DNA of 17,548 bases from a phage. A program made the translations under genes and the position numbers. The stretch lies in assembly GCA_025289735.1 (NCBI GenBank), contig GCA_025289735.1_4764.3, one strand, 5' to 3'. This document shows positions 8,342 through 17,548 of this stretch, one piece after another (position 1 is the stretch's first letter; every line of letters starts with the position of its first letter). A model generated the notes under the pieces. That model made no database searches, was not told the origin of the DNA, and worked only from the letters and a program-made list of their open reading frames with translations.

Positions 8342-8533
8342 TCACTTATCGTTAAGAAGATCTAAAACTTTCTGTCGTACTTTGTCAATATTAGTTGATT
8401 CAAAAACTGTACGGTATCCCCAGCTTTGACCGTATGAGCGGTTGCAATCTCCATATCCCCATTGTTCAACCTGATAGTATTCAAGGAATGGATGCTGCCG
8501 AACTATGATACCATCGCGGTTAAAAATTACCAT
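8342..8533 (-). CDS. Hypothetical early protein (63 aa)
   Basis: ATG with GAGGA 7 nt upstream. Trp/Tyr/Gly-rich small protein. Confidence 0.45.
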   Translation of the reverse strand: MVIFNRDGIIVRQHPFLEYYQVEQWGYGDCNRSYGQSWGYRTVFESTNIDKVRQKVLDLLNDK

Positions 8534-8556
8534 AATATAATCCTCACGTCAACAAC

Positions 8557-8838
8557 TTATTTTCGGTTATACTTCTGCCACTTTCGGTAATACTGCTTGT
8601 AATATTGTTTAATGTTTGGTGGTTCGTCACTATACATGTTATCAACCATCATGTCAATAAGACCTTCCGGTGTTTGATAGTTACCCGCTCGAATGAGTTC
8701 CTTAATCAAAAGATCTTGCGTCGCTTTATACTTGACAATAACAACTGTCTTTTCTGCCTTTCCAATTCCGATCCGGTCGTTAGCTCTCATAGCATCCCAC
8801 CAATCTTTTTTAAACTTCATGTTGTTAAATTTCATCAT
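8557..8838 (-). CDS. Hypothetical early protein (93 aa), basic Tyr/Lys-rich C-terminus
   Basis: Two consecutive ATG codons with AAGAAGGG upstream, overlapping the stop of the 266-aa gene. Confidence 0.5.
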   Translation of the reverse strand: MMKFNNMKFKKDWWDAMRANDRIGIGKAEKTVVIVKYKATQDLLIKELIRAGNYQTPEGLIDMMVDNMYSDEPPNIKQYYKQYYRKWQKYNRK

Positions 8839-9639
8839 TTAACCCTTCTTATATTCGCAAACATATTGAGTACCATAATCATAGCTAATGCGACCTTTCT
8901 CGATGACTTCAAAGCGGATTTCATCGTTTTCCCCTACCCACATTTTGTACTCGTTGAAGTATCCTGCTACATCCGGTTTGCTCATACCAACAACCATATT
9001 TTTATATTGTTTGCTGCGTGTCAGATTTGATTTAAACACTTCGCGCTCATCAACATATACGAAAGAAGACAATTCACCTTCGGTCATGGTCATTTTCAGC
9101 TTGCCGCCCTTGTTGCCATAAGTAGAGTTGCCATACAATGGATCTTTGCGGCTGTCTGTTTCAATACCATCAATGATTTTCCATGTAAATTTTGCAATGC
9201 ACTGGTAAGTGATAGATCCAGAGATTTTCTCTTCTTTCTTCTGTTCTTCCACCACTTTTTCTTCCTGTTTCGGTTGTTCTTCTTCAACCTTCACAGAAGT
9301 CTCTGAATCGCTTTCTGACGCGGTTTCTTCTTTAGGTAATACATTCATCAAGTTTTGGATTTGAGCGTGATATACAGCCTCCAGTGGCTGAATTTTCCCG
9401 ATATTGATCATTGTATCACGAACAGTTTTATTCCAGTTGCGTTGCTCTTGTTTCAGAGACGGATCAATCTTAACAGCCTTAACATATACTTCATGAAGTT
9501 TAGAATCAAGTGCGGAGATAGACTCATTAGCACAAATAAACTTCTCTGATTTGGTAGTAGCTTTAGCGCAATCAAAGGACGCAGCATTAGCACCGAAAGC
9601 AGTAGCAGAAAGAACGATAGCAGCGATAATGTTTTTCAT
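8839..9639 (-). CDS. Secreted protein with N-terminal LprI/DUF1311-like domain, charged linker and C-terminal beta-rich domain (266 aa)
   Basis: ATG with GAGGAA 8 nt upstream, directly downstream of promoter cassette P3. Signal peptide MKNIIAAIVLSATAFGANA|AS. Then FDCAKATTKSEKFICANESISALDSKLHEVY...QEQRNWNKTVRD, fitting the DUF1311 pattern as I recall it (C..A.T..E..IC...LD..L..Y...Q..W...RD). E/K-rich linker. C-terminal domain with two Cys and an SGSITY motif. Confidence 0.7.
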   Translation of the reverse strand: MKNIIAAIVLSATAFGANAASFDCAKATTKSEKFICANESISALDSKLHEVYVKAVKIDPSLKQEQRNWNKTVRDTMINIGKIQPLEAVYHAQIQNLMNVLPKEETASESDSETSVKVEEEQPKQEEKVVEEQKKEEKISGSITYQCIAKFTWKIIDGIETDSRKDPLYGNSTYGNKGGKLKMTMTEGELSSFVYVDEREVFKSNLTRSKQYKNMVVGMSKPDVAGYFNEYKMWVGENDEIRFEVIEKGRISYDYGTQYVCEYKKG

Positions 9640-9673
9640 AATATATTCCTCAGTGTTTTGTCTTGATGGTAGT

Positions 9674-9702
9674 ATGTTACTACTCCCTTAATCCGGTGTC
9701 AA
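9674..9702 (-). promoter_or_regulatory. Sigma70-like early promoter P3 (-35 TTGACA, 17-nt spacer, -10 TAACAT)
   Basis: Minus-strand sequence aaaaagtagTTGACA-N17-TAACAT, about 35 nt upstream of the ATG at 9639. A-rich upstream element. Shares a conserved leader with the other cassettes. Confidence 0.6.
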
Positions 9703-9709
9703 CTACTTT

Positions 9710-9865
9710 TTAAATTTCTTCTACAGTAAAGTCTTCAATGTTGTTGTGCTCGGAGAACGTTGCCAGACCAGCATTCCATGCATCATCCTCAGAGAAGAAT
9801 ACACCGTAACGTTCATATCCCTTAGCGCCTTCAAATTTAACCATTAATTTGTGAGTATGTTTCAT
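9710..9865 (-). CDS. Hypothetical early protein (51 aa), acidic
   Basis: ATG at 9863..9865 with AAGGAG 7 nt upstream, downstream of P4. The track ORF start at 9898 lies inside the promoter. Confidence 0.5.
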   Translation of the reverse strand: MKHTHKLMVKFEGAKGYERYGVFFSEDDAWNAGLATFSEHNNIEDFTVEEI

Positions 9866-9896
9866 TTTGATTCTCCTTAGTTGTCTTGATGAGTTC

Positions 9897-9925
9897 ATTA
9901 TAGGGGATCACCGATCCCCTGTCAA
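9897..9925 (-). promoter_or_regulatory. Sigma70-like early promoter P4 (-35 TTGACA, palindromic 17-nt spacer, -10 TATAAT)
   Basis: Minus-strand GTTGACA-GGGGATCGGTGATCCCC-TATAAT. The spacer is a perfect inverted repeat containing two GATC sites. Confidence 0.6.
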
Positions 9926-9933
9926 CAACTATT

Positions 9934-10146
9934 TTAATGTTTACCCACGCGTAAATTAATGCGCATTTTCTGCATAGCCATGATCTGGTTTACTGCTTCT
10001 TCTTTACGTTCTTGCGTGATAACGTGACCAGATTCCGCAAACTCTCCCGCAACTTCTTCTACAATCTCGCGAACTTGAGAACGTCCAAAGATGCGGTTTC
10101 CTTCGTAGCTCATAAATTCAGTCACTACTTGCTCAATAGATTTCAT
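9934..10146 (-). CDS. Hypothetical early protein (70 aa)
   Basis: ATG with AAGGAG 7 nt upstream, downstream of P1. Confidence 0.55.
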   Translation of the reverse strand: MKSIEQVVTEFMSYEGNRIFGRSQVREIVEEVAGEFAESGHVITQERKEEAVNQIMAMQKMRINLRVGKH

Positions 10147-10178
10147 GTGATTCTCCTTCTTTCGTTTGGTATGGGAGT

Positions 10179-10207
10179 ATATTACTACTCCCGTTTCTTT
10201 ACGTCAA
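10179..10207 (-). promoter_or_regulatory. Sigma70-like early promoter P1 (-35 TTGACG, 17-nt spacer, -10 TAATAT)
   Basis: Minus-strand ctaaaaaccaGTTGACG-N17-TAATAT followed by the conserved leader ATACTCCCATACCAAAC and the RBS. Confidence 0.6.
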
Positions 10208-10214
10208 CTGGTTT

Positions 10215-10457
10215 TTAGAAATTTTTCGCTTCTTCTTCGGTAATCATAACCGCGCATTCGTGCATAACTTTGAAAACCGGATCAATCATGTCGAATGCTT
10301 CGCGGGACAGTTTACGAGAAGCGATTTTGATTGCTTCAACGTCTTCGACTACAGGAACAAAAACAGTTTTCAGTTCATCGAGAACGGCAGCTTCTTTTTC
10401 ATTCAGGAAGATCCCAGCGTCGTACAGTGCAACTTCGATAACATTAACTTTAACCAT
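10215..10457 (-). CDS. Hypothetical early protein (80 aa), acidic
   Basis: ATG at 10455..10457 with GGAGGAAA upstream, downstream of P2. The track N-terminal extension is a translation of the promoter. Confidence 0.55.
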   Translation of the reverse strand: MVKVNVIEVALYDAGIFLNEKEAAVLDELKTVFVPVVEDVEAIKIASRKLSREAFDMIDPVFKVMHECAVMITEEEAKNF

Positions 10458-10491
10458 TTTTATTTCCTCCAGTTCGTTTCGGTATGGGAGT

Positions 10492-10520
10492 ATAATACTA
10501 CCGATGACCTTTGGCGTCAA
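10492..10520 (-). promoter_or_regulatory. Sigma70-like early promoter P2 (-35 TTGACG, 17-nt spacer, -10 TATTAT)
   Basis: Minus-strand acaaaaaactaGTTGACG-N17-TATTAT followed by the conserved leader ATACTCCCATACCGAAAC. Overlaps the 3' end of the upstream gene. Confidence 0.6.
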
Positions 10521-10722
10521 CTAGTTTTTTGTTATTTTCGTGAAAATTTTTCGTCGCCTCATGTGCTTTTCGCTGGGCTTCTTGTTGTGCTTGCTGGCGT
10601 GCTGCCTCTTGCGATGCCATAACAGACGCATTTGCAGCAGTTACAGCCGCGACCATCGCTGCGGTATTAGCATTTACCGTACATGCACTAGCCAGCAAAG
10701 CAATTGCAATCATTTTCTTCAT
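10498..10722 (-). CDS. Small secreted protein or lipoprotein (74 aa) with Gln/Ala-rich helical mature region
   Basis: ATG with AAGGGG 6 nt upstream, overlapping the upstream stop (ATGA). N-terminus MKKMIAIALLASAC has a lipobox-like LASAC; an alternative signal peptidase I site lies at VNA|NT. Mature part QEAARQQAQQEAQRKAHEATK. Confidence 0.6.
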   Translation of the reverse strand: MKKMIAIALLASACTVNANTAAMVAAVTAANASVMASQEAARQQAQQEAQRKAHEATKNFHENNKKLVDAKGHR

Positions 10723-10889
10723 AGTTTCCCCTTTATGTTATCTTCGACCTTCATCCATTCCGCGTATTCTTGTGCGGCTACTTTCGGATTTAAGCCGTCT
10801 TCGTACATTGCATCAAGTAATTCTTTGTCGGTGGGCTTATACCCTAGATAAGCCTCCACCTGATTTTTCCAAATTTTATACCAGTTCAT
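10719..10889 (-). CDS. Hypothetical early protein (56 aa)
   Basis: Internal ATG (MNWYKIWKNQ...) with GGTGAT 4 nt upstream. The longer track ORF would overlap the upstream gene by 65 nt. Confidence 0.45.
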   Translation of the reverse strand: MNWYKIWKNQVEAYLGYKPTDKELLDAMYEDGLNPKVAAQEYAEWMKVEDNIKGKL

Positions 10890-10893
10890 ATTA

Positions 10894-11166
10894 TCACCAG
10901 TCAAGAGCGCGTGTCTCTGCGTCTTCCCATGCTTGGTCCATAACAGCCTTGAAAACATATTCTAAAGTATCATCTTTAGAGAATCCGAAGATTTTAGACG
11001 GAATATCTTCAATTGCTACTCCCGCAACTTCTGCATTACGCGCTTGGCAGTAATGCAACTCTAAGTTATCGAGATAGCGACCGCCTAATTTCTCCATATC
11101 ATCCCAGCATTTCCAGTAACCTACTTTATTTGCAATTGCTAACACTTTGCTGTTTTCGTTGCTCAT
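10894..11166 (-). CDS. Hypothetical early protein (90 aa)
   Basis: ATG at 11164..11166 with AAGGAGA 7 nt upstream, first gene downstream of P5. Confidence 0.55.
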   Translation of the reverse strand: MSNENSKVLAIANKVGYWKCWDDMEKLGGRYLDNLELHYCQARNAEVAGVAIEDIPSKIFGFSKDDTLEYVFKAVMDQAWEDAETRALDW

Positions 11167-11197
11167 CTTTGATTCTCCTTTTGTTTGGTATGTGTGT

Positions 11198-11226
11198 ATT
11201 ATGCGAGGCTGGATTCGTGAAGTCAA
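11198..11226 (-). promoter_or_regulatory. Sigma70-like early promoter P5 (-35 TTGACT, 17-nt spacer, -10 CATAAT)
   Basis: Minus-strand attttaaaaagttGTTGACT-N17-CATAAT followed by leader ATACACACATACCAAAC and the RBS. Lies immediately downstream of the terminator at 11236..11267. Confidence 0.6.
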
Positions 11227-11235
11227 CAACTTTTT

Positions 11236-11267
11236 AAAATAAAAAAGCCGACCACAAGGATCGGCTT
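11236..11267 (-). terminator. Rho-independent terminator (minus strand) after the 131-aa gene
   Basis: Minus-strand hairpin AGCCGA ... TCGGCT (6 bp, 9-nt loop) followed by TTTTTTATTTT. Confidence 0.6.
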
Positions 11268-11276
11268 AATAATCAG

Positions 11277-11672
11277 TTACTTACTAAATTTCTTTTTGGC
11301 TTCGTCTACTGCATGAGATGCCAGTACCGCCGCCGCATGTGCACTTTTATCTGTGTTGCAGAGAACACCCAGATAAACATCACGCCAAAGTTTAATCATC
11401 TCGTAGATCATATCAATATCATTTTCTTGTTTGTTGGCGATGCTATTCGTCGTTATCTGGTAAGGTAACGGCTTAATCTGTACTGGTTCCGCCATCGGGC
11501 TAATAGGTTTCGGATCAGTCATAATAGGTGCTGTTGTGGGTGATGTTTTCCATACGTCATTATTCCACGGTTTAATCGTTGTATCGTAAAGTTTATAAGG
11601 ATTTTTGTCTGGGTCAACCATCCATGCATGATGAGTACCCAAACCATTTGAAGTGATGCGTCGTTCAGTCAT
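11277..11672 (-). CDS. Hypothetical early protein (131 aa)
   Basis: ATG with GGAGGGAAAGT upstream. Start overlaps the 3' end of the upstream gene by 8 nt. Confidence 0.55.
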   Translation of the reverse strand: MTERRITSNGLGTHHAWMVDPDKNPYKLYDTTIKPWNNDVWKTSPTTAPIMTDPKPISPMAEPVQIKPLPYQITTNSIANKQENDIDMIYEMIKLWRDVYLGVLCNTDKSAHAAAVLASHAVDEAKKKFSK

Positions 11673-14287: not shown

Positions 14288-15280
14288 TTAGTAATGGCTA
14301 AAACCTTCGGTTACATCTTCAACCACATAGTAACGATGACAGCGCATTTTGGCATTCGCATAATCTTTCGGGATACTTACAACGTGACGCGGATCAACTT
14401 TACATTTAATGATTCGGCCTCGTCCACCGCCATAGTGCGGAATATAGTGTTTCGCTGCAACGTGGAGGCCATTAGAGCAAGTGCGATCATCATCTGGGTC
14501 CACGTCTTTACGCTTCATTTTAACCGTGCGCCCTGGGCTATTATCAAATGTATGCGTAAAGAAATCTTTATAATCAACATCAACACGTTTCCATGCATAG
14601 AAACAACCATCTTCCCCGATCTCAATGTCGTTGTGCTCTAAGAAGTCAAATAGACGATCTACCGCCTTACGGCTAGGGTTTTTCTTGCACTTCTCAAAGA
14701 AGTTCAGATAGTGCGTATATGGCTTATTCTCTTTAATCGACTCCACAACTCGACGAGTCAGATTATTATCAAGAACAATATTATGATAATACACAATACC
14801 ATTTTCGATACGGAAAGCGCCGTGATAATATACTTCAACCGCTTTCTTAATGTCAATCAGCGTAATTGCTTTAATAAAATCATTCTGCTTAATCGCTTCC
14901 AGTGCTTCATTAAAGTTAACATGCGACGGATCAGCAGTATAAACAATGTCGCCGCATGTAATAGTAATAAACTTAGTTGAGGCTATTGCGACGATTTTTG
15001 AGGAAGTAGTCACGGGCTTTTTTGCGCGTTCACCGCCTTTTCCTTTACTGGTTTTACGGCGTGCTTTACGTTTTTCTAGTGCCTTGCGACCTTCCGCTAC
15101 TGCGTCTTTCTGAATCAGTAATACACGGGAGGCAGTACGACGAGATACCCCAAATGCTGCCGCAAGTGCTTCGCGGGTAGTAAACTTACCTTCGCCCCAC
15201 TGTTTAGCCAGTTTGATTTGTTTCGCAGAATCCAGGCATTGAACGTTACGGTCAGAGACGGTGATTTTTGCTTTAGTCAT
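14288..15280 (-). CDS. rIIB: rIIB protein (about 330 aa)
   Basis: C-terminal two-thirds match recalled T4 rIIB blocks: KAVDRLFDFLEHNDIEIGEDGCFYAWKRV, FDNSPGRTVKMKR, TCSNGLHVAAKHYIPHYG, PRHVVSIPKDYANAKMR, YYVVEDVTE. The likely start is the ATG at 15278..15280, 9 nt from AGAGGA; the track start at 15289 abuts the SD. Confidence 0.85.
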   Translation of the reverse strand: MTKAKITVSDRNVQCLDSAKQIKLAKQWGEGKFTTREALAAAFGVSRRTASRVLLIQKDAVAEGRKALEKRKARRKTSKGKGGERAKKPVTTSSKIVAIASTKFITITCGDIVYTADPSHVNFNEALEAIKQNDFIKAITLIDIKKAVEVYYHGAFRIENGIVYYHNIVLDNNLTRRVVESIKENKPYTHYLNFFEKCKKNPSRKAVDRLFDFLEHNDIEIGEDGCFYAWKRVDVDYKDFFTHTFDNSPGRTVKMKRKDVDPDDDRTCSNGLHVAAKHYIPHYGGGRGRIIKCKVDPRHVVSIPKDYANAKMRCHRYYVVEDVTEGFSHY

Positions 15281-15342
15281 AGTATTCATTCCTCTATTAG
15301 TTGGGCGACTATCGCCGCCCGATTCACATCATTATACCAGAA

Positions 15343-15474
15343 TTATTTTGCTTCTACAACCTTGCGGATTGTGCGGTCTGATACATTATAGATTCGTGCC
15401 AGTTCGCCTTTAGTCAAGCCGCGAGCGTATTGTTTACGGATGGTTTCTTTCTGGATAGCGGTCAGTTTAGTCAT
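15343..15474 (-). CDS. Unlisted 43-aa helix-turn-helix mini-protein between rIIA and rIIB
   Basis: Hand translation of the minus strand: MTKLTAIQKETIRKQYARGLTKGELARIYNVSDRTIRKVVEAK. SD GAGGTGA 5 nt upstream of the ATG, overlapping the rIIA stop. Resembles the rIIB N-terminus (MTKAKITV...TTREALAAAFGVSRRTASRVL). Too short to appear in the ORF track. Confidence 0.5.
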   Translation of the reverse strand: MTKLTAIQKETIRKQYARGLTKGELARIYNVSDRTIRKVVEAK

Positions 15475-15485
15475 AATATCACCTC

Positions 15486-17548
15486 TTAAAATTTAACATT
15501 CTTAACCAGTTTCATAAAGTCTTGTGCGCGTTTGTCATTATGAAGAATACGATACCAGTTATCTACAATATCATACAGTAACGGGCTATTCTCTTTAAAC
15601 TTCGCACAAACTGCTTTAATTCGTTCGTTTGCTGCCGTGAATTTTTCGTCACAGATCTTTTTAGTTTCTTCGTCCATGATCCAACGAGTACGAAGGAGTA
15701 ACTTGGAAACCTCTTTATTATAATGACGACCGTACAGTCTGTCAATAAATTCTGGAACACAGCGTTCTAATTCATCGTCATGATACAACATAGTGATCAC
15801 GCCCAGATATTCGCCATACCCCAGATGATTGGTCTTAACCTTCTTAGCCAGACCAGCCAGCTTACCGCGAACAAATTCTAGCGCACATTCCAATTGTTCG
15901 TCAACGAGATATTTTTGTGTCTCGTTTCGAGTAATAATATACTTTGTTACCCCGAAGTAGTCAAGCGCCGTGTGTAATGTATTTTCACTATAGATCGATT
16001 GACGGCTACGGCTTTCGAATGCATCACCTACGCGGAACATATGCAAGCCTGATAACTCGCGAATCTCTGCCGCTTTCATGTGATGGCTGGTTTTATGCCA
16101 ACTGTCACCAATCTTTTCCATGATATACACGTTAGGCAGCTTGGGAGTAGCTTCACGTTGTGTACGCTCGGTCTTCTCCGGTTTAACTGCTTTAGCACGC
16201 AGATCATCGGCCTCAGACACTTTAATCACGGTCATTTCAGAATCATCATAATACTGTTTGATGTACTCGAAAGTCTCCATATGTTTTTCGTTGTTCTGAC
16301 GGAACACCAGTACCTTTTTATTGATGCCGTATTCCTGGACCATGCCGTTAAGAGTCAGTGCACGCAGTTTCGGTTTATCGGTATCATCAATAAGACACGT
16401 AATATCTTCTTTATGCATCCATACAAAATGCGTAATGTTGTATTGACTGCTAACGAAAGCAGGGCGCAATTTACTGATTGTGTGACGAGTACGATACAGA
16501 GTATACACCTGACCTTCTACGTCATTAGGCGAATCTTTACCCGCATTAACAAACTTATTATAGATTGCTACCGGATCATCCCATTGCCCGATCTTACCCA
16601 TCTTGCTAATAATATTTCGTTGCGTCGATGAATACTCGCTCATAAATTGCGCAAGTTTACGCTCTGTTTTAATGTTGGCGATCTTCTCTTTGACCTTTTC
16701 CAACATCATTTCATTGATTTCTGCAATGCGTTTTTCGATGTTCGCTTTAGTCTCAATTGACAAGTGAACTTCTTCACGCGATGGCATCAGGTCCAGATCA
16801 CCCAACTCAAAATTAATGTAAATGGTCTGGTGCTGGCGGTTTACAGCTTCTAACCATGTTCCGCGAACATATTCATACGGGATCGGATACTGGATCTTAC
16901 CCATGATTGCATATACTACATAGGAATCGTTATCACGCCCATTACACACATAATAATTATCAAAGCTAGGGAAATAATTAATTTCGATTGCATTGATATT
17001 AGGTTTGTGTTCCCCAAAATGACGAAGTACAAATTGTGCTTCTCGATGCCATGTCTGAATGTCTTTTTCTTTCACCGGAATAGTGATTTTCAGACCATTG
17101 TCTTCATAGGTCGGTTCGTCGAAAATCTGCACCATTTTCGGCATAGAGTTTTGCACAAATGCCGTAAAGCCATAAGCGCGACCATTGTAGTAGTTTACGA
17201 TTGTAAAGGTGTCAGTATAGCTATAAGCAGACTTCGCACCTAAACCAAAAGATCCGATATAATCATTAGTCTGGTCTTTGGTTGATTCAAAGTAAACCGT
17301 AAACAGTTGTTCTAATTCTTTCTTAGACGGAATACCAGTACCATAATCACGCACAGAAAAATACGGTTCAATTGCGGTAGGCAAATGAATATCAAACGGA
17401 CGATCTAAGGTTCCGGCTTCTTTGTGAGTGTCGGTAGCATTGCACGAATACTCACGGACGCAAGCACGCTCACAATATTGATAAGTGTTCTTAGAAAGCA
17501 CCATAAAAGCCTTGCTACTTGCTTTCAGTGAAAAATCAACCGCACCGC
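15486..17548 (-). CDS. rIIA: rIIA protein, 5'-truncated by the window edge (GHKL-type ATPase fold at the N-terminus)
   Basis: Reading frame stays open upstream of the track Met to the window end (...GAVDFSLKASSKAF-MVLSK...). SKAF, VREYSCNATDTH, DRPFDIHLP, VRDYGTGIP, DYIGSFGLGAKSAYSYTDTF and IEINYFPSFDNYY parallel recalled T4 rIIA N-terminal motifs. Position is upstream of rIIB as in T4. Confidence 0.85.
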   Translation of the reverse strand, partial: GAVDFSLKASSKAFMVLSKNTYQYCERACVREYSCNATDTHKEAGTLDRPFDIHLPTAIEPYFSVRDYGTGIPSKKELEQLFTVYFESTKDQTNDYIGSFGLGAKSAYSYTDTFTIVNYYNGRAYGFTAFVQNSMPKMVQIFDEPTYEDNGLKITIPVKEKDIQTWHREAQFVLRHFGEHKPNINAIEINYFPSFDNYYVCNGRDNDSYVVYAIMGKIQYPIPYEYVRGTWLEAVNRQHQTIYINFELGDLDLMPSREEVHLSIETKANIEKRIAEINEMMLEKVKEKIANIKTERKLAQFMSEYSSTQRNIISKMGKIGQWDDPVAIYNKFVNAGKDSPNDVEGQVYTLYRTRHTISKLRPAFVSSQYNITHFVWMHKEDITCLIDDTDKPKLRALTLNGMVQEYGINKKVLVFRQNNEKHMETFEYIKQYYDDSEMTVIKVSEADDLRAKAVKPEKTERTQREATPKLPNVYIMEKIGDSWHKTSHHMKAAEIRELSGLHMFRVGDAFESRSRQSIYSENTLHTALDYFGVTKYIITRNETQKYLVDEQLECALEFVRGKLAGLAKKVKTNHLGYGEYLGVITMLYHDDELERCVPEFIDRLYGRHYNKEVSKLLLRTRWIMDEETKKICDEKFTAANERIKAVCAKFKENSPLLYDIVDNWYRILHNDKRAQDFMKLVKNVKF

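What the first reader, a model, noticed from the sequence alone, without database searches (positions are those of the whole stretch)
9674..11226. Five near-identical promoter/leader cassettes punctuating the small-gene array
P1 to P5 share an A-rich upstream tract, GTTGAC(A/G/T) at -35, a 17-nt spacer, a TATAAT-like -10 and a conserved leader (ATACTCCCATACCAAAC ... AAGGAG ... ATG). Repeats of this kind between unrelated small ORFs are what one expects of mobile promoter cassettes that drive modular gene shuffling in hyperplastic regions of T4-type genomes. The -35 is closer to E. coli TTGACA than to the T4 early GTTTAC I recall.
Basis: seen in the sequence. Interest (0 to 1): 0.6.

Follow-up and report, generated by a model that had tools for sequence, protein, structure and literature searches.

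The report
Known early-promoter cassettes (PeSLs), RB49-like phage
The five repeats are real early-promoter/hairpin/ribosome-site cassettes, of a kind already described in RB49-type phages as PeSLs, and related genomes gain, lose and swap the small genes between them at these cassettes; this is a correct but already published observation.

Summary
The window is a Krischvirus (RB49-like T4-type coliphage), 95-97% identical to ELT4, Brandy and RB49. On the minus strand, five sigma70-type promoters sit in front of small orphan genes downstream of gene 52. Each has an A-tract, GTTGAC(A/G/T), a 17-nt spacer and a TATAAT-like -10 box. Each also has a conserved C-A start 7 nt downstream of the -10 box and an unstructured 25-28 nt leader with a strong ribosome-binding site. 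The motif is far above chance (7 matches against 0.69 expected). "Near-identical" is overstated: pairwise identity is 37-66% and there are two leader subtypes.

These are PeSLs (promoter-early stem-loops), described by Arbiol et al. 2010 and Comeau et al. 2014. GEC-3S already annotates four of the five promoters.

- Whole modules are present or absent in many combinations, and many pairs show all four gametes.
- The junctions are chimeric cassettes.
- 9 of 12 breakpoint ends fall in cassette zones covering 22.5% of the region (P=1.6e-4).

"Mobile" means dispersed homology used by general recombination; I found no gene relocated between loci.

One side lead is not in the PeSL papers: the cassette ribosome-site module GGAGAATCAAA matches 10 of 11 positions of the T4 RegB cleavage consensus.

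The parts
11237..11267 (-). Intrinsic terminator after gene B, immediately upstream of P1: hairpin AAGCCGATCCTTGTGGTCGGCTT followed by a T-run. This is the stem-loop component of the P1 cassette (subclass with the hairpin in the AT-rich upstream region).
   Evidence: Terminator scan. The centroid fold keeps this hairpin. GEC-3S annotates a terminator at the same place. Sequence confirmed.
11164..11242 (-). Cassette P1. A-tract, -35 box GTTGACT (TTGACT 11226-11221), 17-nt spacer, -10 box CATAAT (11203-11198). Predicted start A at 11191, 25-nt leader ATACCAAACAAAAGGAGAATCAAAG, ATG of gene C at 11166.
   Evidence: Annotated as a promoter in GEC-3S.
10455..10536 (-). Cassette P2. A-tract, -35 box GTTGACG (10520-10515), 17-nt spacer, -10 box TATTAT (10497-10492). 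Weak stem CGGTA..TACCG spans the -10 box. Predicted start A at 10485, 28-nt leader, SD TGGAGG, ATG of gene F at 10457. Gene E reads through the -35 box and stops at 10500-10498.
   Evidence: Annotated as a promoter in GEC-3S.
10144..10223 (-). Cassette P3. A-tract containing the stop codon of gene F, -35 box GTTGACG (10207-10202), -10 box TAATAT (10184-10179). Hairpin GGGAGTAGTAATATACTCCC (10192-10173) holds the -10 box in its loop. Predicted start A at 10172, 26-nt leader, SD AAGGAG, ATG of gene G at 10146.
   Evidence: (-11.9 kcal/mol, z=-2.1). 444 similar places in 61 phage records.
9863..9941 (-). Cassette P4. A-tract containing the stop codon of gene G, perfect TTGACA (9925-9920) and TATAAT (9902-9897). 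The whole 17-nt spacer is the hairpin GGGGATCGGTGATCCCC (9919-9903). Predicted start A at 9890, 25-nt leader, SD AAGGAG, ATG of gene H at 9865.
   Evidence: The identical spacer occurs in GEC-3S cassettes at 115980 and 123192, about 40 kb away.
9637..9718 (-). Cassette P5. A-tract containing the stop codon of gene H, -35 box GTTGACA (9702-9697), -10 box TAACAT (9679-9674). Degenerate hairpin GGGAGTAGTAACATACTACC (9687-9668); relatives have ACTCCC, which restores the stem. Predicted start A at 9667, 28-nt leader, SD TGAGGA, ATG of gene I at 9639.
10894..11166 (-). Gene C (90 aa orphan; RB49 ORF264c). With gene D it forms one module, which is absent from ECD7 and G37-3.
   Evidence: (phrog_7287, unknown function).
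10719..10889 (-). Gene D (56 aa orphan; RB49 ORF263c). It has no promoter of its own.
10498..10722 (-). Gene E (74 aa, signal-peptide-like N-terminus). Absent from RB49, phi1, JSE and others. Largely deleted in 011D4, PHB13 and E26, where D is fused to the E C-terminus.
   Evidence: No Pfam or PHROG family.
10215..10457 (-). Gene F (80 aa orphan) behind P2. Present in 32 Krischvirus records, always at this locus.
   Evidence: No Pfam or PHROG family.
9934..10146 (-). Gene G (70 aa orphan; RB49 ORF262c) behind P3. Present in all 16 relatives. In ECD7 and G37-3 it is driven by chimeric cassettes.
9710..9865 (-). Gene H (51 aa orphan; RB49 ORF261c) behind P4. Missing from GEC-3S, 011D4, PHB13, AV108, pEJ01, Sf20 and kaaroe, each of which has a P4/P5 chimeric cassette or a replacement gene.
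8839..9639 (-). Gene I (266 aa, LprI-like N-terminus; RB49 ORF260c) behind P5. Two allelic C-terminal halves exist; homology to most relatives ends at 9238.
   Evidence: (PF07007, E=8e-5).
8531..8563 (-). An A-tract and GTTGAC are joined directly to the SD/start module GTGAGGATTATATTATG. The spacer, -10 box and leader are missing.
   Evidence: This class is described by Comeau 2014.

Best explanation
The five repeats are PeSL-type early expression cassettes of an RB49-like phage (Krischvirus). Each is a compact unit with these parts:
- the stop codon of the upstream gene inside an A-rich, UP-like tract
- a near-consensus host sigma70 promoter (GTTGACN, 17 nt, TATAAT-like)
- a G/C-stem hairpin placed upstream of the promoter, in the spacer, or around the -10 box
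- a fixed C-A start site 7 nt after the -10 box
- a short unstructured A-rich leader with a strong ribosome-binding site, then the ATG of a small orphan gene

Inferred mode of action:
1. Unmodified host RNA polymerase fires each cassette right after infection, so every module is expressed on its own.
2. The hairpin lies upstream of the cassette's own start site, so it is present only in read-through RNA from upstream. There it attenuates or terminates that RNA and insulates neighbouring modules.
3. About 50 similar cassettes are dispersed in one orientation through the hyperplastic regions. They supply 25-60 nt patches of homology.
4. The phage's general recombination system crosses over in these patches, either in the A-tract/-35 part or in the -10/leader/SD part. 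This deletes, inserts or swaps whole gene modules and always leaves a working chimeric cassette.

What is shown here: the anatomy, the excess over chance, dispersal through the genome, hairpin enrichment with compensatory stem changes, chimeric junctions, and combinatorial module content among relatives.

What is taken from the literature: promoter and terminator activity, and mini-circle formation (Arbiol 2010).

What is inferred: the early timing at this locus, the exact start sites, and the insulating role of these particular hairpins.
For: Identity of the genome and prior description:
- The window is 95-97% identical to Krischvirus genomes.
- GEC-3S annotates promoters and a terminator at the orthologous sites.
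- The published PeSL definition matches part for part.

The motif and its dispersal:
- 7 matches against 0.69 expected, 0 of 200 shuffles.
- The P3-type cassette recurs 5-10 times per genome, 444 places in 61 records.
- Tandem copies front unrelated genes in the pseT region.
- The P4 spacer is identical to cassettes 40 kb away in GEC-3S.

Hairpins:
- Cassettes fold better than intragenic sigma70-like controls. Median energy is -11.9 against -6.8 kcal/mol (Mann-Whitney p=5.5e-4), and 66% against 28% reach -8 kcal/mol.
- Different stem sequences keep pairing: GGGAGTA/TACTCCC, GGGGGTA/TACCCCC, GGGTGTA/TACACCC, GGGGATAT/ATATCCCC and GCGGTTAT/ATAACCGC.

Start site and leader:
- A at +7 and T at +8 after the -10 box in 29 of 35 GEC-3S cassettes and in all five window cassettes.
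- The leaders fold at about 0 kcal/mol.

Recombination at the cassettes:
- Loss of gene H joins P4 upstream sequence to P5 at the A-tract/-35 (ends at P4+11 and P5-15).
- ECD7 joins the P1 promoter to gene G inside the shared AAAGGAGAATCA (P1+56 and P3+27).
- G37-3 joins a novel promoter to the P3 leader.
- Gene X is inserted with its own extra cassette.
- 9 of 12 breakpoint ends lie in zones covering 22.5% of the region, P=1.6e-4.
- All four gametes are seen for the pairs X/C, X/E, X/F, X/H, E/H, F/H, Y/H, Y/F and Y/E.
Against: - No transcript data exist for this locus. Desplats 2002 (5' end mapping in RB49) is not held, and no RB49 RNA-seq was found.
- P2 and the window copy of P5 have only weak hairpins, and P1 has none inside the promoter.
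- The hairpins at P3, P4 and P5 lack a following U-run, so they are not canonical intrinsic terminators.
- Sense and antisense strands fold equally well. The data therefore cannot say whether the hairpin acts in RNA or in DNA.
- Some rearrangements are not cassette-bounded. The deletion of E has ends at 10727-10732 and 10560-10572. The left end of the E-P2-F indel is at 10732. The gene I mosaic breaks at 9238.
- BLAST alignment ends tend to extend into any shared sequence, which biases breakpoints toward the cassettes.
- Genes X and F were found only at this one locus in Krischvirus genomes, so movement between loci is not shown.
Confidence: 0.9

Rival explanations
1. The five sites are ordinary, independently maintained early promoters. 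Their resemblance reflects shared functional constraint only (UP element, -35 box, -10 box, start site, ribosome-binding site). They play no special part in recombination, and the indels among relatives arise by unrelated mechanisms.
For: The invariant columns are almost all functional positions: A-tract, GTTGAC, A and T of the -10 box, CA start and GGAG. Overall identity is only 37-66%. Some events at this locus use non-cassette A-rich microhomology.
Against: - Similarity extends into positions with no known constraint. Spacers are identical in cassettes 40 kb apart, and leader blocks such as CATACCGAAACGAA and CATCAAGACAA are shared.
- Junctions in relatives are clean chimeras of two cassettes.
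- 9 of 12 breakpoint ends fall in 22.5% of the sequence.
- Mini-circles with cassette crossovers were shown experimentally in RB49/phi1 (PMC2839356).
Confidence: 0.06
2. The cassettes are active, site-specific recombination sites analogous to integron attC sites. The conserved GGGG...CCCC hairpin would be extruded in DNA and recognised by a dedicated protein or a structure-specific nuclease. Modules would then move as circles by a specialised pathway rather than by passive homology.
For: Hairpins are enriched and maintained by compensatory changes. They fold equally well on both strands, which is compatible with cruciform extrusion. Arbiol et al. detected mini-circles and speculated about a hairpin-binding recombination protein.
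Against: - The crossovers mapped here lie in the A-tract/-35 region or in the leader/SD region, not in the hairpin.
- P1 takes part in exchanges without any internal hairpin.
- No integrase or recombinase is known in these genomes beyond the T4-type machinery.
- Genes X and F stay at a single locus.
Confidence: 0.04

Closest known systems
PeSLs (promoter-early stem-loops) of RB49 and phi1 (Arbiol, Comeau, Kutateladze, Adamia and Krisch 2010, PMC2839356)
   Same: - Same phage genus and the same orientation
- Same parts in the same order: AT-rich tract carrying the upstream stop codon, near-consensus TTGACA-N17-TATAAT, G-rich/C-rich stem-loop in one of several positions, Shine-Dalgarno sequence and start codon
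- Same setting, in front of orphan genes in a hyperplastic region
- Same association with indels
- Same crossover zones (AT-rich region, or between the -10 box and the SD)
- phi1 ORFan263.1, which lies in this very locus, is listed there as a phi1-specific gene in a hyperplastic region
   Different: Nothing essential differs. This window is a different isolate with the five-cassette arrangement also seen in ELT4, W115, FL38 and OZ035808. That arrangement includes genes E and F and cassette P2, which the original RB49 and phi1 records lack. Two of the five copies have weak or degenerate hairpins.
PeSL variants of T4/PST and KVP40/nt-1, and 'half' PeSLs (Comeau, Arbiol and Krisch 2014, PMC4122927)
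   Same: The same concept of composite promoter-terminator linkers at indel sites. The degraded form retaining only the -35 part matches the element at 8531-8563.
   Different: Those phages use TTTACW or TTGYVH at -35, different stem consensus sequences, and stem-loops placed upstream of the promoter. The window has the RB49-type near-perfect sigma70 boxes and GGGG/CCCC stems.
T4 early promoters (Miller et al. 2003 consensus; survey by Nolan et al. 2006, PMC1524935)
   Same: A-rich UP-like tract at -40 to -44, G at -36, a TATAAT-like -10 box, and use of host sigma70 polymerase early in infection.
   Different: T4 has GTTTAC at -36 to -31. RB49-type phages have G at -33 (GTTGAC), as seen here in all five cassettes.
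Integron gene cassettes and attC sites; lambdoid 'morons' (comparisons drawn by Arbiol et al.)
   Same: Small accessory genes are gained and lost as units next to a structured repeat. Circular intermediates have been reported. Morons also carry their own promoter and terminator.
   Different: There is no integrase and no attI/attC recombination. The promoter sits in every cassette rather than once per array. Exchange runs through homology in the regulatory linker itself, which is not proposed for morons.
T4 RegB/S1 endoribonuclease target sites (Uzan and Miller 2010 review, PMC3014915)
   Same: The cassette SD module GGAGAATCAAA matches 10 of 11 positions of the strong-site consensus GGAGRAYARAA. 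It lies in an unstructured translation-initiation region of an early gene, which is where RegB cuts in T4.
   Different: Position 8 is C rather than A. RB49 RegB is one of the three divergent sequences, and its preference at these sites is untested. P5 has no GGAG at all.

Membership tests
PeSL (RB49/phi1 type, Arbiol et al. 2010) | [quoted passage not shown] | tested here: met
   An A-tract is present in all five cassettes (6-11 A in the 15 nt upstream). The stop codons of F, G and H lie in the A-tracts of P3, P4 and P5. B stops just before the P1 terminator. E stops inside the P2 spacer.
PeSL (RB49/phi1 type, Arbiol et al. 2010) | Near-consensus sigma70 promoter, TTGACA-N17-TATAAT | tested here: met
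   All five have TTGACN and a 17-nt spacer, and match 9-12 of the 12 hexamer positions. P4 is perfect.
PeSL (RB49/phi1 type, Arbiol et al. 2010) | Stable stem-loop, often G-run/C-run, in one of five positions relative to the promoter | tested here: met
   Clearly met for three cassettes:
- P1: upstream terminator hairpin
- P3: stem around the -10 box, -11.9 kcal/mol
- P4: hairpin in the spacer, -14.6 kcal/mol

Weaker for the other two:
- P2: 6 bp stem with a 14-nt loop, -9.6 kcal/mol
- P5: one mismatch in the window copy; the stem is intact in relatives

Sources.
PeSL (RB49/phi1 type, Arbiol et al. 2010) | Shine-Dalgarno sequence and start codon of the downstream gene at the 3' end | tested here: met
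   All five have an SD 5-9 nt before an ATG that opens an intact ORF.
PeSL (RB49/phi1 type, Arbiol et al. 2010) | Located in a hyperplastic region, in front of orphan genes, as one of many dispersed copies | tested here: met
   The genes have no Pfam family, apart from the LprI-like N-terminus of gene I, and only unknown-function PHROGs or none. The P3-type cassette occurs 5-10 times per genome. About 35 cassettes were found in 100 kb of GEC-3S, clustered in three regions.
PeSL (RB49/phi1 type, Arbiol et al. 2010) | Insertions, deletions and replacements between related phages are bounded by the elements | tested here: met
   16 relatives were compared. Junctions are chimeric, 9 of 12 breakpoint ends lie in cassette zones (P=1.6e-4), and module content is combinatorial. 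A minority of events are not cassette-bounded.
PeSL (RB49/phi1 type, Arbiol et al. 2010) | Strong promoter activity and terminator/attenuator activity in reporter assays | not testable with these tools
   Shown in the paper for PeSL206/205, 193/192 and 211/210, not for the cassettes of this locus.
PeSL (RB49/phi1 type, Arbiol et al. 2010) | Formation of extrachromosomal mini-circles by exchange between neighbouring elements | not testable with these tools
   Demonstrated by PCR and sequencing for the ORF192 and ORF210 regions. It would need outward-facing PCR or long reads for this locus.
T4-type early promoter (T4 consensus GTTTAC) | T at position -33 (GTTTAC) | tested here: not met
   All five have G at this position (GTTGAC). 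This is the documented RB49/RB43/Aeh1 variant.
Integron attC gene cassette | Integron integrase and an attI/attC site with imperfect inverted repeats R''-L''/L'-R' | not tested
   No integrase-like gene appeared among the ORFs and annotations examined in the window or in 100 kb of GEC-3S, and the authors report none. No dedicated search was run.
RegB/S1 cleavage site (T4) | GGAG in an unpaired translation-initiation region of an early mRNA, followed by RAYARAA | tested here: inconclusive
   Matches to the 11-position consensus: P1 and P4 10 of 11, P2 and P3 9 of 11, P5 has no GGAG. The site is mostly unpaired (P unpaired 0.70-0.86). GGAGAATCA occurs 25 times on the early strand and 0 times on the other. 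Cleavage itself is untested.

The most novel reading that the evidence does not exclude
The conserved 3' block of the cassette, GGAGAATCAAA, may be more than a strong ribosome-binding site. It may also be a RegB/S1 endoribonuclease target. Each PeSL would then be a self-contained early-on, early-off unit. Host polymerase would switch it on. The hairpin would insulate it from upstream transcription. RegB would then cut the Shine-Dalgarno sequence and silence it. Any gene dropped behind a cassette would inherit correct early timing automatically. Neither PeSL paper mentions RegB. Separately, a DNA-level role of the hairpins in starting recombination remains open, because sense and antisense strands fold equally well.
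Probability: 0.3. Interest if true: 0.4.

Novelty: already known. Interest (0 to 1): 0.22.

Why it matters
PeSL arrays offer a concrete mechanism for Botstein-type modular evolution. Short regulatory linkers double as recombination targets, so accessory genes can be added, removed or swapped without breaking expression of their neighbours.

This locus is a clean, data-rich example. About 60 sequenced Krischvirus genomes carry many combinations of at least five independent modules within 2 kb. One module gene (X) has relatives in unrelated T1-like siphoviruses.

This matters in practice for annotating and engineering therapeutic RB49-like phages. The cassettes are predictable deletion and insertion points and strong early promoters. 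None of this is new in principle, because the class was described in 2010 and 2014.

Tried and rejected
- Generic direct-repeat finding recovered only fragments (families D3 and D15), because the copies are too divergent. The generic promoter scan as a whole was not above chance, 50 sites against 48.4 expected. Only the specific GTTGAC pattern is significant.
- The per-cassette fold z-scores are weak, from +0.07 to -2.1. I therefore replaced them with a cassette-versus-control comparison.
- Rfam has no family for the leaders or hairpins; there were no matches at E<=1 in 8400-11400.
- A sense-versus-antisense folding test, meant to decide between an RNA and a DNA role for the hairpins, gave no asymmetry (p=0.68).
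- I looked for evidence that module genes move between loci. Within Krischvirus, X and F occur once per genome and always at this locus.
- Desplats et al. 2002 (RB49 5' end mapping) is not held. No RB49 transcriptome paper was found.
- I first took the 672-aa ORF at 15486-17504 for topoisomerase gene 39. The GEC-3S annotation shows it is rIIA, cut off by the window end, and that 14288-15289 is rIIB.
- Two ORF coordinates (D and H) were out of frame at first and were corrected.
- I considered a transposon or MITE-like element and rejected it without a dedicated test. My reasons were that I saw no terminal inverted repeats, target duplications or transposase.


Full report
**What is there**

Read on the minus strand, window 9637-11267 contains five sigma70-type promoters. 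Each stands in front of a small ORF. The promoter boxes, in + strand coordinates, are:

| Cassette | -35 box | -10 box |
|---|---|---|
| P1 | 11226-11221 | 11203-11198 |
| P2 | 10520-10515 | 10497-10492 |
| P3 | 10207-10202 | 10184-10179 |
| P4 | 9925-9920 | 9902-9897 |
| P5 | 9702-9697 | 9679-9674 |

All five share these features:
- an A-rich tract upstream of the -35 box
- G immediately before TTGAC
- a spacer of exactly 17 nt
- a -10 box with A at position 2 and T at position 6
- the dinucleotide C-A, with the A exactly 7 nt after the -10 box
- a 25-28 nt leader that is predicted to be unstructured (0 to -0.8 kcal/mol)
- a ribosome-binding site and an ATG opening an intact ORF

The pattern GTTGAC-N19-A-N3-T occurs 7 times in the window, all on the minus strand. 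Chance expectation is 0.69, and none of 200 shuffles reaches 7.

The copies are not near-identical. Ungapped pairwise identity is 37-66% and mean column identity is 69%.

The quoted leader ATACTCCCATACCAAAC is exact only in P3. It is close in P2 and P1. P4 and P5 carry a different leader, CATCAAGACAA. AAGGAG is present in P1, P3 and P4 only.

- A canonical terminator (hairpin plus T-run, 11237-11267) lies just upstream of P1.
- GGGGATCGGTGATCCCC fills the whole P4 spacer.
- GGGAGTA/TACTCCC brackets the P3 -10 box.
- P2 has a weak stem.
- P5 has the P3-type stem with one mismatch. Relatives have ACTCCC, which restores it.

**Source and context**

The region is 95-97% identical to Krischvirus (RB49-like) coliphages. 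It is colinear over its full length with ELT4, W115, FL38 and the OZ035808 RB49 assembly.

The window runs as follows:
- tail-fibre and holin genes on the + strand
- on the minus strand, a hyperplastic region
- then gene 52, rIIB and rIIA

The genes between the cassettes, which I labelled C to I, are orphans. None has a Pfam family except gene I, which has an LprI-like N-terminus. They match only unknown-function PHROGs, and E and F match none.

The GEC-3S record already annotates a terminator and four promoters at the orthologous positions.

**Known class**

Arbiol et al. 2010 (PMC2839356) defined PeSLs, promoter-early stem-loops, in RB49 and phi1. A PeSL has:
- an AT-rich tract holding the upstream stop codon
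- near-consensus sigma70 -35 and -10 boxes
- a stem-loop in one of five positions
- a Shine-Dalgarno sequence and the start codon of the next gene

They counted about 50 per genome, mostly in hyperplastic regions in front of orphan genes. They showed promoter and terminator activity experimentally. They proposed that exchange between PeSLs deletes or inserts modules via mini-circles.

- Comeau et al. 2014 (PMC4122927) contrast TTGACA-N17-TATAAT in RB49/phi1 with TTTACW in T4/PST, and describe degraded half PeSLs.
- Nolan et al. 2006 (PMC1524935) independently report G instead of T at -33 in RB49 early promoters, and an A-rich UP-like tract.
- phi1 ORFan263.1, which lies inside this very locus, is listed by Arbiol et al. 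as a phi1-specific gene in a hyperplastic region.

Every sequence-level defining feature of the class is met here.

**Test of cassette-bounded exchange**

I fetched the locus from 16 relatives and compared them with the window.

Module content differs by whole units:
- Gene X, with an extra cassette of its own, is inserted after P1 in Brandy, G37-3, pEJ01 and G2494.
- C-D are absent from ECD7 and G37-3.
- E-P2-F are absent from RB49, phi1, JSE, Sf20, pEJ01, G2494 and AV108.
- Gene Y (phi1 ORF263.1) follows G in phi1, E26 and Sf20.
- Gene H is absent from GEC-3S, 011D4, PHB13, AV108, pEJ01, Sf20 and kaaroe.

Breakpoints, given relative to the first T of the -35 box:

| Event | Left end | Right end |
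|---|---|---|
| Loss of H | P4+11 | P5-15 |
| Insertion of Y | P4-6 to P4-19 | P4-10 to P4-13 |
| ECD7 deletion (C to F) | P1+56 | P3+27 |
| Insertion of X | P1+58 to P1+63 | P1+26 to P1+27 |
| G37-3 replacement | P1+58 | P3+12 |
| Loss of E-P2-F | 10732 (outside a cassette) | P3-1 |

Three-way alignments show clean chimeras:
- GEC-3S has P4 upstream sequence joined to P5 at the A-tract.
- ECD7 has the whole P1 promoter joined to gene G inside the shared AAAGGAGAATCA.
- G37-3 joins a novel promoter to the P3 leader.

These are the two crossover zones that Arbiol et al. reported: the AT-rich region, and the stretch between the -10 box and the SD.

Nine of 12 distinct breakpoint ends fall in cassette zones (-25 to +65), which cover 22.5% of the region (binomial P=1.6e-4). 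BLAST alignment ends extend into shared sequence, so this figure is somewhat favourable to the hypothesis.

All four presence/absence combinations occur for many module pairs: X/C, X/E, X/F, X/H, E/H, F/H, Y/H, Y/F and Y/E. The modules therefore reassort, or are repeatedly gained and lost, within less than 2 kb.

Not every event is cassette-bounded:
- The deletion of E in 011D4, PHB13 and E26 uses A-rich GAAAATAA patches.
- Gene I has two allelic C-terminal halves, with a break at 9238.

**Dispersal and the hairpin component**

- The P3-type cassette matches 444 places in 61 phage records, 5-10 per Krischvirus genome. Outside the genus there are only two trivial hits.
- A second hyperplastic region, next to pseT, holds tandem copies in front of unrelated genes.
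- In 100 kb of GEC-3S I found 35 cassettes with an A-tract and SD/ATG. Two of them carry the window's exact P4 spacer.
- These cassettes fold better than 53 intragenic sigma70-like matches used as controls. Median energy is -11.9 against -6.8 kcal/mol (Mann-Whitney p=5.5e-4).
- Several different stem sequences keep the -10 box in the loop: GGGAGTA/TACTCCC, GGGGGTA/TACCCCC, GGGTGTA/TACACCC, GGGGATAT/ATATCCCC and GCGGTTAT/ATAACCGC. These are compensatory changes.

The 3' arm of the hairpin ends just before the predicted start site. The hairpin is therefore absent from the cassette's own transcript and present only in read-through RNA from upstream. That fits the proposed attenuator or insulator role.

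Sense and antisense strands fold equally well (p=0.68), so a DNA-level role is not excluded.

**Mechanism, with the status of each step**

| Step | Status |
|---|---|
| Anatomy, excess over chance, dispersal, hairpin selection, chimeric junctions, combinatorial module content | Shown here |
| Promoter strength, terminator activity, mini-circles | From the literature |
| Early timing at this locus, start sites at 11191, 10485, 10172, 9890 and 9667, insulation by these hairpins, crossover by the T4-type general recombination system using patches under 50 bp | Inferred |

'Mobile' should be read in this passive sense. Within Krischvirus, genes X and F occur once per genome and always at this locus. 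X does have homologs at 42-58% identity in T1-like Shigella and Klebsiella siphoviruses, which shows gene flow across phage families.

**Side lead**

The SD block GGAGAATCA occurs 25 times on the early-gene strand and never on the other strand in 117.5 kb. About 0.9 would be expected by chance on both strands together. At least 19 of the 25 lie in cassette leaders.

GGAGAATCAAA matches 10 of 11 positions of the T4 RegB/S1 strong-site consensus GGAGRAYARAA. It sits in an unpaired initiation region.

RB49 has a divergent but active regB. Neither PeSL paper mentions RegB. Whether these leaders are cut is untested.

**Verdict**

The feature belongs to a class published in 2010 and 2014 and already annotated in a close relative. 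It is already known, and its interest is low.

Noticed in passing
window 8531-8563 (minus strand): A degraded 'half' PeSL. An A-tract and GTTGAC are joined directly to the SD/start module GTGAGGATTATATTATG of the 63-aa ORF 8342-8533, with no spacer, -10 box or leader. It is conserved in relatives. phi1 has roughly 50 extra bases at this spot (an apparent duplication there).
   Followed up: partly
window 8839-9639 (gene I), break near 9238: Gene I has an LprI-like N-terminus and exists in two allelic forms. GEC-3S, phi1, E26, AV108 and PHB13 share the window's C-terminal half (97-99% identity). Most other relatives show only about 65% protein identity overall, and their DNA homology stops at 9238, inside the gene. 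This mosaic is not bounded by a cassette.
   Followed up: partly
window 10498-10722 (gene E) and 10515-10520 (P2 -35 box): Gene E reads through the A-tract and -35 box of P2 and stops on the last three bases of the spacer. In 011D4, PHB13 and E26 most of E is deleted between A-rich GAAAATAA-like patches (10727-10732 and 10560-10572), which fuses D to the E C-terminus.
   Followed up: partly
cassette leaders at window 11177-11167, 10156-10146 and 9876-9866; GEC-3S loci L019 and L020: The SD block GGAGAATCA is found 25 times on the early-gene strand and 0 times on the other in 117.5 kb, almost only in cassette leaders. GGAGAATCAAA matches 10 of 11 positions of the T4 RegB/S1 cleavage consensus GGAGRAYARAA. 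The PeSL papers do not mention RegB.
   Followed up: partly
window 15717-15964 (minus strand), inside the 3' end of rIIA: Three sigma70-like sites lie within the rIIA coding sequence: TTGACT-17-TATATT at 15964, GTTGACG-18-TAGAAT with an A-tract at 15904, and a perfect TTGACA-17-TATAAT at 15745. All three are conserved in GEC-3S, where they are not annotated. They may be internal promoters for the small ORF 15343-15474 and rIIB.
   Followed up: no
L006:1124-1330 (Brandy gene X); also G37-3, pEJ01 and G2494: Module gene X (68 aa) is absent from the window and is inserted after P1 in 14 Krischvirus records. It has homologs at 57-58% identity in T1-like Shigella phages (Sfin-1, Shfl1) and at about 42% in about 90 Klebsiella phage records (those listed have ~50-kb genomes). 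This indicates gene flow between unrelated phage families.
   Followed up: partly
L002:2961-3260 (kaaroe): The kaaroe gene in place of H is phi1 ORF263.1 with an internal tandem duplication of about 13 codons. The record annotates it as a repeat_region.
   Followed up: no
window 15300-15345 (minus strand): The rIIB upstream region has an extended -10-like TGGTATAAT followed by the hairpin GGGCGGCGATAGTCGCCC. This architecture differs from the GTTGAC cassettes.
   Followed up: no
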